From the IMG/VR virus record IMGVR_UViG_3300045988_153472: 64,000 nt of DNA; one strand, written 5' to 3'. A program made the position numbers and the translations under genes. This stretch comes from a virus. Of this stretch, positions 38,627 through 40,307 are shown piece after piece; positions within the stretch are counted from its first letter, which is position 1; the number at the start of each line of letters is the position of its first letter. A model generated the notes under the pieces. The model was not told where the DNA came from and ran no database searches. It saw nothing but the letters and a program-made list of their open reading frames with translations.

Positions 38627-39772
38627 TTACATGTCCTCCATTGAATAAATTACTTTTTCTAAGCTTCTTTTTGATTTGAAACACTTCTTAAGCAAACACC
38701 ACATAATGGCTTTTTCAGTATCATCTTCGTCTTCCCAATCATTTAAGACTACAGAAGTCTGTGTTCCATCTTTGAACCCTACAGTAGTTCTAATTTTTCC
38801 TGTAGCAATATCTTTTGTTCTTCCTACAAATGTGATATCATCTTTCGAAAGTGTTTTACAAACCTGTTTATCAGTTTTATTTTTAGGTACAATATATACA
38901 TCAATGCCTAAAGCATCTTTAATCTGACGCTCACAGCTTCTAAGCTCTTCTCCAATAGTATGCTCTTTTTCTTTTTTCGCTACTGCTTTTTCAAGTGCTT
39001 TTAAAATCTCATCTGGTGACATATTCATATCTGTTTTCTCCTCTTTATAATTAAAATACTGCATTGGTTTCAGTTTAAACTTATTTTTTGTATGTAAACG
39101 ATCAATCCGTCTTTTAATTTCCGGATCATCGCAAATACCTGTACGAATATATCTATCTAATACTGCATAGGTAAATCCGAAGCTATCTTCATCTGATTTA
39201 CCGCATAACCCATCTGATGGTGTTTTCTCTATATATTTTTTAGGTAGTCCTAAATAATAACCGATTCTTTTTACTTCACTCTTTGTGAACTGAGCCAACG
39301 GTGAAAAGTCCCCTGCTGCGTCACCATATCTAGTGGAGTATCCGATGTAATCCTCAGAAAGATTACATGTATTAACCACTCTTCCATTGTGTGACTGTGA
39401 CACCCCGTATAGAGTGGTCATTCTTAGTCTAGGAGCGAGATTAATTAATGTCTGATCTGTTACATTAAATGCAGCATCAATTTGATCAATAATATCATCA
39501 TAAGCTGATCCAATATTAATAGTAAGATAATCAATGTTTAATACATGCTGGCAAATATCATAAGCCACATCAATATCATCCTGTTTATAGTTCGGCATGA
39601 TTACTCCGAGAACTTTGTCAGCTCCAACGGCTTCCACACATAGCTTAGCAGCTACTAAAGAGTCAACGCCACCGGAAATACCTACTATGAGATTACATCC
39701 AGGACCATTCTCTTCTCTCCAATCTCTAATCCACTGAATACAATCATTTGTTGCTTTTTCTACATTAAACAT
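38627..39772 (-). CDS. nadE: NH3-dependent NAD+ synthetase (NadE) with extra C-terminal domain of about 130 aa
   Basis: PP-loop LIVGISGGVDSLVAAKLC matches NadE GISGGQDS. An uncharacterised C-terminal extension follows the NadE core. Confidence 0.7.
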   Translation of the reverse strand: MFNVEKATNDCIQWIRDWREENGPGCNLIVGISGGVDSLVAAKLCVEAVGADKVLGVIMPNYKQDDIDVAYDICQHVLNIDYLTINIGSAYDDIIDQIDAAFNVTDQTLINLAPRLRMTTLYGVSQSHNGRVVNTCNLSEDYIGYSTRYGDAAGDFSPLAQFTKSEVKRIGYYLGLPKKYIEKTPSDGLCGKSDEDSFGFTYAVLDRYIRTGICDDPEIKRRIDRLHTKNKFKLKPMQYFNYKEEKTDMNMSPDEILKALEKAVAKKEKEHTIGEELRSCERQIKDALGIDVYIVPKNKTDKQVCKTLSKDDITFVGRTKDIATGKIRTTVGFKDGTQTSVVLNDWEDEDDTEKAIMWCLLKKCFKSKRSLEKVIYSMEDM

Positions 39773-40307
39773 TCTGCTCCTCCAATTTCCACAATTCTAC
39801 TTCAAAACTACTTAATTCTTCTTCTATAATCTTATAAACCACTTCCCAGTCTGCTCCTCCTCTTCCGCAGCCTATTTTATATGGGAGTGCAATGGTTGTC
39901 TTGTGAGGTCTGTTATCAGCATCAAACCAATAAACAGGTATTTGTTGTCGAATAAAATTTAATCCTTCTCGAAAAGCTTTAACATCAGTATACTGTTTTC
40001 CATCATATCCATACTTGTCTTGTGCAAATAAGGACAATATCTCTTGATTTTTCCTTCTGATAAAGTACTCGTCATATGTTCCAAGAAGTAATTCTGGATT
40101 AAACTCACGTAATTTACAGACGTTTCTATAATGTATATAAATACCTTCGTCATAATCTCTTAATGCTTTAGCGACTCCAGTATTCATTTCTCCTTGGCAA
40201 TTAACTTGATGAATTATATAATCGGTCTGTGCATCTACAATGTTACCTTCAATAATTTTAATCATAAATCTTTTCCTATAAATCCTGAAATGTAAACTTC
40301 TCGCCAC
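39765..40307 (-). CDS. Macro domain protein (ADP-ribose binding/processing)
   Basis: IEGNIVDAQTDYIIHQVNCQGEMNTGVAKAL and LPYKIGCGRGGADWEVV match the macro-domain N-terminal and catalytic-loop signatures. Confidence 0.65.
   Translation of the reverse strand: MARSLHFRIYRKRFMIKIIEGNIVDAQTDYIIHQVNCQGEMNTGVAKALRDYDEGIYIHYRNVCKLREFNPELLLGTYDEYFIRRKNQEILSLFAQDKYGYDGKQYTDVKAFREGLNFIRQQIPVYWFDADNRPHKTTIALPYKIGCGRGGADWEVVYKIIEEELSSFEVELWKLEEQNV

What the first reader, a model, noticed from the sequence alone, without database searches (positions are those of the whole stretch)
39765..40307. Macro domain (39765..40307) and NADAR domain (30474..30920) in the same phage: possible reversal of DNA ADP-ribosylation
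Macro domains and NADAR domains are the two known enzyme folds that remove ADP-ribose from thymine-linked and guanine-linked DNA adducts respectively. These are the adducts made by DarT-family toxins, and DarTG systems defend against phage. Carrying both could make this phage resistant to either DarT type. The ADP-ribose released could also feed the adjacent NAD+ reconstitution enzymes. The domain assignments are from sequence; the functional link is inference.
Basis: partly seen in the sequence, partly recalled or inferred. Interest (0 to 1): 0.6.

Follow-up and report, generated by a model that had tools for sequence, protein, structure and literature searches.

The report
Phage NAD+ salvage helpers: macro, NADAR
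Both domains are real, but the macro gene sits inside a phage operon that rebuilds NAD+ after bacterial immune attack and looks like its known helper phosphatase rather than a DNA-repair enzyme, and in sister phages the NADAR gene sits in that same operon.

Summary
Both domains exist. The macro ORF is 39765..40265(-), 166 aa. Pfam misses it, but the AlphaFold2 model, Foldseek and profile searches place it in the ALC1-like macro class. The NADAR ORF is 30474..30896(-), 140 aa, Pfam 3e-29, with catalytic Glu/Lys/Glu intact.

The macro is not DarG2/AdfM-like. It has Gln where DarG has Lys80, scores 53 bits on the PADLOC DarG model (AdfM 133) and falls outside the DarG/AdfM clade (100/100 bootstraps). 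It shares His19/Gln82 with the macro proteins of NARP1 operons. One of those, Adpp, was recently shown to be an ADPR-1''-phosphate phosphatase.

Here the macro sits between a Namat-like gene and NAD synthase, downstream of Adps and a nicotinamidase-like gene. 79 of 80 related viral loci keep Namat upstream of the macro gene. In two sister lineages the NADAR orthologue lies directly between macro and NadE.

Most likely both enzymes release free ADP-ribose from non-canonical NAD+ products for re-synthesis. Guanine de-ADP-ribosylation by the NADAR remains plausible (AdfN precedent). Thymine de-ADP-ribosylation by the macro is unlikely but not excluded, because SCO6735 also has Gln at that position.

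Verdict: known kinds, with a modestly new operon variant.

The parts
39765..40265 (-). Macro-domain protein, 166 aa, ALC1-like class, Adpp-like (His19, Asn22, Gln82). Its last 8 nt overlap the start of NadE.
30474..30896 (-). NADAR-domain protein, 140 aa, YbiA-like type, with Glu31, Lys38 and Glu106 conserved. It lies 9 kb downstream of the macro gene here but inside the NAD operon in sister phages.
38627..39772 (-). NH3-dependent NAD synthase (NadE) with a C-terminal extension of about 140 aa, immediately downstream of the macro gene.
   Evidence: Pfam NAD_synthase 1.7e-48. PHROG 11189. Conserved next to the macro gene in relatives.
41163..42638 (-). Namat-like nicotinamide ADP-ribose transferase of NARP1, with a 10-aa insertion in the selectivity-clamp helix motif.
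   Evidence: Best PDB match is SPbetaL1 Namat 9W5X at 3e-110, against Nampt at about 1e-55. Motif comparison.
43664..44467 (-). Adps-like PRPS-fold ADP-ribose pyrophosphokinase of NARP1, 267 aa.
   Evidence: Aligns from residue 1 with the N-terminal 133 residues of SPbetaL1 Adps that I had (translated from the fragment quoted in the preprint's plasmid table), 35% identity, E 1e-17. PHROG 619 2e-68. PRPS PDB hits cover only residue 65 onwards.
44984..45559 (-). Isochorismatase-family protein, nicotinamidase (PncA)-like. It is the first gene of the module.
   Evidence: Pfam Isochorismatase 1e-23. Best PDB match is P. horikoshii nicotinamidase 1ILW at 7.8e-15, with the Asp/His/His metal site, Lys and Cys aligned.
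40697..41170 (-). 157-aa protein with a HAD-like DxDGVL motif. It is fused to the C-terminus of Namat in relatives (645-649 aa).
   Evidence: Sequence. No family hit. Fusion inferred.
40276..40719 (-). 147-aa protein of unknown function (coiled coil plus Cys-rich C-terminus) between Namat and the macro gene.
   Evidence: Conserved at this position in groups A and B.

Best explanation
The macro gene is the macro-domain accessory of a phage NAD+ reconstitution operon of the NARP1 type. The gene order is nicotinamidase-like, Adps, Namat-like, macro, NadE.

When host immunity destroys NAD+ in a non-canonical way, the macro enzyme most likely strips the group attached to the 1'' position of ADP-ribose and releases free ADP-ribose. 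The known precedent for such a substrate is ADPR-1''-phosphate made by RES-domain NADases. Adps then pyrophosphorylates the ADP-ribose, and the Namat-like enzyme rejoins it to the pyridine base. NadE possibly finishes the amidation.

The NADAR protein is an orphan, catalytically intact N-glycosidase. In sister phages it is encoded inside the same operon, directly after the macro gene. It therefore most likely plays the parallel role for N-linked ADP-ribose conjugates. Guanine-ADPr on DNA is the only proven substrate class. The ADP-ribose it releases would enter the same pathway.

Shown here: the folds, the conserved residues, the family affinities and the conserved gene order. Inferred: the substrates and the flow of ADP-ribose into Adps/Namat.
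For: 1. NARP1 core is present. The Namat-like protein's best solved relative is SPbetaL1 Namat, 372 bits against about 190 for Nampt. The PRS-like protein aligns end-to-end with SPbetaL1 Adps.

2. Published precedent. 15% of NARP1 operons carry a macro protein. The one from Vibrio phage Gary (Adpp) converts ADPR-1''P to ADPR and lets NARP1 defeat aRES.

3. Sequence affinity.
- phmmer scores of the window macro: 44-70 bits to five NARP1-associated macros (PH357, 1.063.O, RYC, VCM, JG004) and 25-40 bits to four others; 25 bits to DarG; 19 bits to AdfM.
- His19 and Gln82 are shared by all 11 NARP1-associated macros tested, including Adpp. DarG and AdfM have Asn/Ile and Lys at those positions.
- The DarG/AdfM clade excludes the window protein in 100/100 bootstraps.
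- On the PADLOC DarG model, AdfM scores 132.9 bits, the window macro 53.5 and Adpp 44.6.

4. Conserved context.
- Namat lies 1-2.6 kb upstream of the macro gene in 79/80 IMG/VR loci, spanning four lineages with macro identity from 100% down to 45%. Adps, the nicotinamidase-like gene and NadE are present nearly always.
- The same order appears in independent contigs and in 25/80 bacterial or MAG contigs.
- Macro and NadE overlap by 8 nt in the window.

5. NADAR link.
- The orthologue (91% and 65% identical) lies between macro and NadE in 16/24 group-B loci and 18/32 group-D loci.
- In L070 six genes abut or overlap: nicotinamidase-like, Adps, Namat, macro, NADAR, NadE.
- A chromosomal NrtR-NADAR-macro-PARG cluster in Paenibacillus shows the same pairing in an ADPR/NAD regulon.
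- Catalytic Glu31, Lys38 and Glu106 are invariant. All four NADAR subtypes tested, including YbiA, hydrolyse guanine-ADPr in vitro.

6. Analogy. RyDEP, another gene inserted in a NARP1 operon, turns cADPR signals into ADPR that NARP1 re-uses.

7. The phage encodes an NAD+-dependent DNA ligase, so it needs NAD+ itself.
Against: - The one biochemically tested Adpp (Gary) is only a distant relative: 16.8 bits pairwise, below DarG's 25. The assignment rests on the wider family and on context.
- Family members also occur away from NARP1, for example in Bacillus phage vB_BcoS-136, in Phapecoctavirus and in many Paenibacillus/Bacillus chromosomes.
- In this window the macro is the third gene after Namat, not within two. 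The NADAR is 9 kb away, behind an unrelated RlaP/ATPase/TerD block.
- The Namat-like enzyme carries a 10-aa insertion in the motif said to define Namat, so ADPR-PP use is not certain.
- Anti-defence genes cluster for reasons other than shared pathways.
- No substrate was tested.
- SCO6735 shows that a Gln-type ALC1-like macro can cleave thymidine-ADPr.
Confidence: 0.55

Rival explanations
1. Mixed reading. The macro is the NARP1 accessory as above, but the NADAR is selected purely as an AdfN-type orphan antitoxin. It removes ADP-ribose from guanines that DarT1 places on phage DNA, and its occasional position in the NAD operon is only anti-defence clustering.
For: AdfN proteins from T4, Bas32 and Bas60 rescue phages from DarTG1, and they come from different NADAR clades. 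The window NADAR keeps the catalytic residues. It is 44.8% identical to the NADAR of T5-like Markadamsvirinae, the subfamily of Bas32, and one such gene is annotated 'antitoxin-like enzyme'. In the window itself the NADAR lies outside the NAD module. L003 lost it while keeping macro and NARP1.
Against: It sits recurrently and tightly between macro and NadE in two lineages and next to a macro gene in an NrtR cluster. The protein is nearest to YbiA (3e-18). YbiA and T4 NADAR failed to neutralise DarT1 in cells despite in vitro activity. I could not obtain the Bas32/Bas60 sequences to test direct kinship.
Confidence: 0.25
2. The macro reverses thymine-ADPr made by DarT2 (like DarG2/AdfM) and the NADAR reverses guanine-ADPr made by DarT1. 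Together they give resistance to both DarTG types.
For: The macro's top PDB matches by sequence and fold include DarG macrodomains. AdfM of PhiKZ proves that phages use macrodomains this way. SCO6735, with Gln at the catalytic position, cleaves thymidine-ADPr. Macro and NADAR co-occur in DNA viruses more often than chance.
Against: The DarG catalytic Lys is replaced by an invariant Gln. The DarG model score is 53.5 bits against 132.9 for AdfM. The protein lies outside the DarG/AdfM clade in 100/100 bootstraps. Foldseek scores DarG, TARG1 and Poa1p alike. The strongly conserved partners are Namat, Adps and NadE, not DNA-metabolism genes.
Confidence: 0.1
3. RNA-repair housekeeping. The macro clears ADP-ribose 1''-phosphate or 1''-2'' cyclic phosphate produced by a Tpt1/KptA-type 2'-phosphotransferase during tRNA repair, as yeast Poa1p does.
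For: Poa1p is a structural and sequence relative. The window carries an RNA ligase, an AAA_33/KTI12+HD kinase-phosphatase-like protein and RlaP. RlaP sits next to the macro gene in L010/L011.
Against: No Tpt1/KptA or other ADP-ribosyltransferase domain was found among the 58 of 76 ORFs of at least 100 aa that I scanned. The RNA-repair genes are not the conserved neighbours; Namat, Adps and NadE are.
Confidence: 0.05
4. Other ADPr chemistry. The macro deacetylates O-acetyl-ADP-ribose or removes protein mono-ADP-ribosylation made by host Sir2/ART defences, and the NADAR is a YbiA-like riboflavin-intermediate N-glycosidase.
For: ALC1-like macrodomains such as TARG1 are promiscuous (one search matches; established knowledge). 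YbiA is the closest solved NADAR. Several phage homologues are annotated as riboflavin or GTP cyclohydrolase related.
Against: There are no riboflavin genes nearby. The NADAR sits in NAD operons. Even O-acetyl-ADPR hydrolysis would still yield ADPR for NARP1, which merges with the best explanation.
Confidence: 0.05

Closest known systems
Adpp, the macro-domain ADPR-1''-phosphate phosphatase of NARP1-AP (Vibrio phage Gary KNV71_gp137; bioRxiv 10.64898/2026.01.28.702374)
   Same: Stand-alone macro protein of about 160 aa on the same strand as Adps and Namat. It shares the His19, Asn22 and Gln82 signature and the G-C-G-x-x-G-x-W loop. Its distance from the DarG model is similar. It would deliver free ADPR to NARP1.
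   Different: Only about 17 bits pairwise to Gary Adpp; the window protein is closer to other NARP1-associated macros (RYC, 1.063.O, PH357). The host range is gut Bacillota rather than Gram-negative, whereas Table S1 holds no Bacillus, Clostridium or Enterococcus phages. The operon also carries nicotinamidase-like, NadE and, in relatives, NADAR genes that are not described for NARP1-AP. The Namat motif is altered.
AdfM (PhiKZ gp104) and DarG2 macrodomains
   Same: Same ALC1-like macro fold. All are phage-encoded stand-alone macros lumped into PHROG 335. The conserved Asn (AdfM N23) is present.
   Different: The catalytic Lys80 is replaced by Gln, and the FPTKxxW motif is absent. The DarG model gives 53.5 against 132.9 bits. 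The clades are separate. There is no nucleus-forming phage context.
AdfN orphan NADAR antitoxins (T4 gp30.3, Bas32, Bas60) and DarG1
   Same: Orphan single-domain phage NADAR with the catalytic Glu and Lys seven residues apart. No DarT partner is nearby.
   Different: Not the T4 type: Pfam Phage_30_3 gives only 19 bits, and there is Glu rather than His at the third catalytic position. It is nearest to YbiA. In relatives it is embedded in a NAD+ operon, a context not reported for AdfN.
RyDEP, a RyR-domain glycosidase inserted in mycobacteriophage NARP1 operons (bioRxiv 10.64898/2026.05.28.727677)
   Same: An accessory gene present or absent inside a NARP1 operon that turns a non-canonical NAD+ product into linear ADPR for Adps/Namat. 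This is the role proposed here for the macro and the NADAR.
   Different: The fold is unrelated. It cleaves ribose-ribose O-glycosidic bonds in 2'/3'cADPR.
SCO6735 (Streptomyces coelicolor) and yeast Poa1p
   Same: ALC1-like macrodomains without the TARG1/DarG lysine. SCO6735 has Gln at the same position. Poa1p shares the His and is an ADPR-1''P phosphatase.
   Different: Both are weaker profile matches than DarG or BT1257, and their genomic contexts differ.

Membership tests
Macro domain superfamily, ALC1-like class | Three-layer alpha/beta/alpha macro fold matching solved macrodomains | tested here: met
   AF2 pLDDT 91.8. Foldseek matches DarG, BT1257, TARG1 and Poa1p at E 2e-10 to 5e-9, TM 0.7-0.8.
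Macro domain superfamily, ALC1-like class | Pfam PF01661 score above the gathering threshold | tested here: not met
   12.9-13.2 bits against a cutoff of 22. More distant homologues do pass.
Adpp / NARP1-AP | Adps and Namat genes present together | tested here: met
   Namat 9W5X at 3e-110 against Nampt at 1e-55. Adps N-terminal alignment E 1e-17.
Adpp / NARP1-AP | Namat selectivity-clamp helix motif GSxPhixPhixPhiTRD | tested here: inconclusive
   The window has GAFCFS + a 10-aa insertion + VVTRD. PAK_P4 and SPbetaL1 have the canonical motif.
Adpp / NARP1-AP | Macro gene within two genes of the NARP1 genes (the preprint's operational rule) | tested here: inconclusive
   In the window it is the third gene after Namat. 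It is the second where the HAD-like gene is fused and directly adjacent in L066/L070. 79/80 related loci keep Namat within 2.6 kb.
Adpp / NARP1-AP | Sequence kinship with NARP1-associated macro proteins | tested here: met
   Five of the ten untested NARP1-associated macros score 44-70 bits, above DarG's 25; the other five score 25-40 bits, and the tested Adpp (Gary) only 16.8. The His19/Gln82 signature is shared by all 11. NJ grouping 55/100.
Adpp / NARP1-AP | ADPR-1''-phosphate phosphatase activity | not testable with these tools
   Needs LC-MS with the purified protein.
DarG2 / AdfM | Catalytic lysine (Taq DarG K80) in the FPTKxxW motif | tested here: not met
   An invariant Gln occupies this column in 52 homologues and in the alignments.
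DarG2 / AdfM | Strong match to the DarG model and membership of the DarG clade | tested here: not met
   PADLOC DarG 53.5 bits against 132.9 for AdfM. Excluded from the clade in 100/100 bootstraps.
DarG2 / AdfM | Hydrolysis of thymidine-linked ADP-ribose on ssDNA | not testable with these tools
   SCO6735 (Gln type) has this activity, so sequence cannot exclude it.
NADAR superfamily | Pfam PF08719 above threshold | tested here: met
   102.8 bits against 35.1.
NADAR superfamily | Catalytic Glu, Lys (i+7) and third acidic residue (PnNADAR E43, Lys, E125) | tested here: met
   Glu31, Lys38 and Glu106 are invariant across orthologues, YbiA and PnNADAR.
AdfN (orphan anti-DarT1 NADAR) | Phage-encoded NADAR without an adjacent DarT | tested here: met
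   The neighbours are small membrane proteins, PF21825 and PspA. No ART domain appears in the 58 ORFs scanned.
AdfN (orphan anti-DarT1 NADAR) | Kinship with a tested AdfN (T4, Bas32 or Bas60) | tested here: inconclusive
   Not T4 type (Phage_30_3 19 bits). 44.8% identical to the NADAR of T5-like phages, but the Bas32/Bas60 sequences could not be obtained.
AdfN (orphan anti-DarT1 NADAR) | Neutralises DarT1 or removes guanine-ADPr from DNA | not testable with these tools
   Needs oligonucleotide and plaque assays.

The most novel reading that the evidence does not exclude
Gut Bacillota phages carry an extended, partly deamidated version of NARP1 as one operon: nicotinamidase, Adps, a Namat variant with a remodelled adenine clamp, macro, NADAR and NadE.

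In this reading nicotinamide is converted to nicotinate and joined to ADPR-PP to give deamido-NAD, which NadE then amidates. No adenylyltransferase would be needed.

The macro and the NADAR would be two interchangeable feeder modules. They convert O/P-linked products (ADPR-1''P) and N-linked ADP-ribose products of immune NADases or ADP-ribosyltransferases back into ADPR. The NADAR would then be a third class of NARP1 feeder, after Adpp and RyDEP.
Probability: 0.3. Interest if true: 0.7.

Novelty: new variant of a known kind. Interest (0 to 1): 0.45.

Why it matters
NAD+ depletion is one of the commonest bacterial anti-phage strategies. Phage pathways that rebuild NAD+ (NARP1, NARP2, NARP3, NARP1-AP, RyDEP) are only now being mapped, mostly in phages of Gram-negative bacteria, Bacillus and mycobacteria.

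This locus extends the macro-assisted NARP1 to abundant phages of about 160 kb from human-gut Bacillota. It also shows a tighter and larger operon than described so far.

If the NADAR, nicotinamidase-like and NadE genes are true pathway members, three things follow. There would be a physiological role for the many non-DarT NADARs. There would be a new route, through deamido-NAD, for viral NAD+ repair. And hosts would be predicted to make additional non-canonical NAD+ breakdown products.

The result also cautions against reading every phage macro domain as a DarG mimic.

Tried and rejected
- Pfam on the macro ORF gave no hit at E<=0.01 and only a sub-threshold hit when relaxed.
- Megablast of the 8-kb region against 50,697 phage records found nothing, so there is no close cultured relative.
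- Foldseek against the PDB confirmed the fold but could not separate DarG, TARG1 and Poa1p.
- PHROG 335 lumps AdfM, Adpp and the window protein together, so it has no discriminating power.
- I first took the Lys-to-Gln change as evidence against DNA activity. I withdrew that as decisive after reading that SCO6735 uses Gln85 and cleaves thymidine-ADPr.
- I tried to obtain AdfN Bas32/Bas60 sequences. The paper's supplements are not held, and my accession guess MZ501082 turned out to be Bas55.
- Adps structures are not in the PDB copy searched, so I used the partial SPbetaL1 and Gary sequences from the preprint's plasmid table.
- My first macro coordinates (39765-40262) were one codon short. I corrected them to 40265 after comparison with P0001.
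- A 200-replicate bootstrap timed out and was rerun with 100 replicates.
- NARP3 (PnuC/NadR) was considered and rejected, because no such genes are present.
- The search for Tpt1, ART, Sir2 or TIR domains covered 58 of 76 ORFs of at least 100 aa and found none. The smaller ORFs and 18 others were not scanned.
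Full report
**Observation**

All genes in the region are on the minus strand.

The NADAR call is solid. Pfam PF08719 gives 102.8 bits, E 3e-29. The ORF lister starts it at a GTG at 30920. ATG 30896, preceded by GGAAGGAG, gives the 140-aa length seen in relatives.

The macro call could not be made with Pfam, which gives 12.9 bits against a cutoff of 22. Four other lines confirm it:
- PHROG 335 at 7e-37.
- phmmer hits to DarG macrodomains in the PDB.
- A confident AlphaFold2 model built from 52 homologues, pLDDT 91.8.
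- Foldseek matches to DarG, BT1257, TARG1 and Poa1p at E 2e-10 to 5e-9.

The real start is ATG 40265, 10 nt after the upstream stop. This gives the 166 aa of the 99%-identical database protein P0001.

**What kind of macro domain**

The fold search places the protein in the ALC1-like class but cannot separate DarG (DNA thymine-ADPr hydrolase), TARG1 and Poa1p (ADPR-1''-phosphate phosphatase). A family profile slightly prefers DarG (61.6 bits) and BT1257 (58) over Poa1p (46.8), SCO6735 (42.5) and TARG1 (38).

Three finer tests separate it from the DarG type.
- The column of the DarG catalytic Lys80 (TARG1 Lys84) holds an invariant Gln in all 52 homologues. The residue before the conserved Asn-bearing strand is His, as in Poa1p, where DarG and AdfM have Asn or Ile.
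- On the PADLOC DarG model, the proven phage DarG2 mimic AdfM (PhiKZ gp104, PMC13309987) scores 132.9 bits. The window protein scores 53.5 and the proven phosphatase Adpp 44.6.
- In a neighbour-joining tree, DarG Taq, DarG Mtb and AdfM form a clade in 100/100 bootstraps that excludes the window protein.

The Gln is not proof against DNA activity. SCO6735 has Gln85 at that position and cleaves thymidine-ADPr (PMC9411070).

**The neighbourhood**

Upstream of the macro gene, in transcription order, lie:
- an isochorismatase-family protein whose best solved relative is a nicotinamidase;
- a short PRPS-like protein that aligns from its first residue with SPbetaL1 Adps;
- a Nampt-fold protein whose best solved relative is SPbetaL1 Namat, 9W5X, at 372 bits against about 190 for any Nampt.

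Immediately downstream, overlapping the macro gene by 8 nt, is NAD synthase.

Adps plus Namat is NARP1, the pathway that rebuilds NAD+ from ADP-ribose and nicotinamide.

A January 2026 preprint from the Sorek laboratory makes three points. 15% of NARP1 operons carry a macro protein. The one from Vibrio phage Gary (Adpp) dephosphorylates ADPR-1''-phosphate, the product of RES-domain NADases (aRES). This lets NARP1 work against aRES.

The preprint's Table S1 sequences share the window protein's motifs: HQxNC, (A/G)QxxYG and IGCGxxGxxW. Five of the ten untested NARP1-associated macros I took from Table S1 give 44-70 bits in phmmer, well above DarG's 25 and AdfM's 19; the other five give 25-40 bits. 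The tested Gary protein itself is a distant member at 16.8 bits.

**Conservation of context**

Contigs carrying progressively more distant macro orthologues (73%, 51%, 43% and 51% identity) all show the same order: isochorismatase, PRS-like, Nampt-like, macro, NAD synthase.

In 80 IMG/VR loci falling into four identity groups, Namat lies 1-2.6 kb upstream of the macro gene in 79. Adps, the nicotinamidase-like gene and NadE are present wherever the contig reaches.

In bacterial and MAG contigs, 25 of 80 homologues have Namat alongside. The best matches are Ruminococcus and Lachnospiraceae, which points to gut Clostridia as hosts. The remainder are chromosomal genes in Paenibacillus, Bacillus and Brevibacillus without NARP1. 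Pseudomonas Pakpunaviruses show the published Adps-Namat-macro arrangement.

**The NADAR**

The NADAR keeps Glu31, Lys38 (seven residues on, as in T4 AdfN E36/K43) and Glu106, the equivalent of PnNADAR E125 that marks YbiA-type NADARs. Its closest solved relative is YbiA. It is widespread in phages: SPbetaL3 at 61%, AR9/PBS1 at 54% and T5-like phages at 44.8% identity.

All four NADAR subtypes tested by Cihlova et al., YbiA included, hydrolyse guanine-ADPr in vitro, and none hydrolyses thymidine-ADPr. Several phage NADARs (AdfN) defeat DarTG1.

The unexpected result concerns position. In the window the NADAR lies 9 kb from the macro gene, behind an RlaP, P-type ATPase, vWA, TerD and PspA block. 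In sister lineages its orthologue lies between macro and NadE: 16 of 24 group-B loci (91% identical NADAR) and 18 of 32 group-D loci (65% identical).

In L070 six genes abut or overlap: nicotinamidase-like, Adps, Namat, macro, NADAR, NadE. L066 is the same operon without the NADAR.

Independently, a Paenibacillus chromosome has NrtR, NADAR, a macro of this family and a microbial PARG in a row. NrtR is the ADP-ribose-responsive regulator of NAD metabolism; that statement rests on established knowledge, not on a test here.

Iyer et al. had already noted that Macro and NADAR co-occur in DNA viruses and that phage NADARs sit near NAD salvage genes. The NARP1 papers I could read do not mention NADAR, NadE or nicotinamidase.

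**Mechanism**

I conclude that the macro is most likely an Adpp-type feeder that releases free ADP-ribose for Adps and Namat. My confidence is about 0.65 for the feeder role and about 0.5 for ADPR-1''P as the specific substrate.

The NADAR is an intact N-glycosidase whose released ADP-ribose can enter the same pathway. Whether its selected substrate is guanine-ADPr on DNA (AdfN-like) or a soluble N-linked conjugate is open. I put each at about 0.35.

RyDEP gives a published parallel: a present-or-absent gene inside NARP1 that converts an immune product to ADPR. aRES candidates are listed in Clostridia and Bacilli in the preprint's Table S2. The phage's own NAD+-dependent DNA ligase explains why NAD+ supply matters to it.

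**Caveats**

- No substrate was tested.
- The tested Adpp is a distant relative.
- The Namat-like enzymes of this clade carry a 9-10-aa insertion in the helix motif said to define Namat: GAFCFSAVVEPDGRMVVVTRD against GSFTYQYNTRD.
- Members of the macro family also occur away from NARP1.
- No Tpt1, ART, Sir2 or TIR domain was found, but only 58 of 76 ORFs of at least 100 aa were scanned.

**Novelty**

The two genes are members of known kinds: the Adpp/NARP1-AP macro and the orphan phage NADAR. What I did not find described is the extended operon, in which nicotinamidase-like and NadE genes always accompany Adps and Namat, the Namat clamp is remodelled, and a NADAR slot sits next to the macro gene. 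I therefore rate it a new variant of a known kind, of moderate interest.

Noticed in passing
L070:7166-11599 (IMGVR_UViG_3300045988_131090); compare L066:7181-11214: A six-gene operon with abutting or overlapping genes: nicotinamidase-like, Adps, Namat-like, macro, NADAR, NadE. L066 is identical except that the NADAR is missing. The NADAR lies between macro and NadE in 18/32 and 16/24 loci of two lineages.
   Followed up: partly
window 44984..45559 and 38627..39772 (-): A nicotinamidase-like gene and NadE accompany Adps and Namat in every lineage examined, and no adenylyltransferase is seen. This suggests a deamidated branch: nicotinate plus ADPR-PP gives deamido-NAD, which NadE converts to NAD+. 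The NARP1 papers I read do not mention it.
   Followed up: partly
window 41163..42638 (-), residues 376-398: The Namat selectivity-clamp helix motif carries a 9-10-aa insertion in this whole gut-phage clade: GAFCFSAVVEPDGRMVVVTRD against GSFTYQYNTRD in SPbetaL1 and GSYTYQCNTRD in PAK_P4.
   Followed up: partly
L146:6558-9351 (Paenibacillus mesotrionivorans); also L130, L131, L136: A chromosomal cluster of NrtR (Nudix + winged helix), NADAR, a macro of this family and a microbial-type PARG. NADAR-macro adjacency recurs without NARP1.
   Followed up: partly
window 40697..41170 (-): A 157-aa protein with a HAD-like MDVDGVL motif and no family hit. In relatives it is fused to the C-terminus of Namat, giving 645-649 aa.
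   Followed up: no
window 38627..39772 (-), C-terminal ~140 aa: NadE carries a C-terminal extension found only in the closest phage group. Other lineages have a NadE of 245-326 aa.
   Followed up: no
window 31326..37158 (-): A block of RlaP nucleotidyltransferase, P-type cation ATPase (873 aa), vWA-TerF-like, TerD and PspA-like genes separates the NAD module from the NADAR. L003 lacks the whole block, together with the NADAR.
   Followed up: no
window 51031..53067, 24717..26015, 49351..50280 (-): An NAD+-dependent DNA ligase, an RNA ligase and an AAA_33/KTI12+HD protein. The first is a phage enzyme that consumes NAD+; the others form a likely RNA-repair set.
   Followed up: no
window 30073..30324 (-): An 83-aa protein matching PF21825 (crAss001_48-related; named 'Sequestin' in the contig annotation), two genes from the NADAR.
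   Followed up: no
window 12604..17388 (-) and 14071..14715 (-): DNA polymerase III alpha appears to be split into two ORFs (854 aa and 462 aa), with a NUMOD4-domain (homing-endonuclease-like) ORF between them.
   Followed up: no
window 58000..59352 (+), 515..1777 (+), 53420..56584 (-): An IS110-family transposase and a tyrosine recombinase are the only long plus-strand ORFs I scanned with Pfam. Two further integrase or MrpR-like recombinase genes lie on the minus strand.
   Followed up: no
Bacillus phages vB_BcoS-136, Kirov, Skywalker, FADO (records MH884508, MW084976, OK499994, OM236516): These Tsamsa-like Bacillus siphophages carry both a macro of this family and a Namat-like gene, but about 25-40 kb apart. 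Co-occurrence in a genome therefore does not require adjacency.
   Followed up: partly
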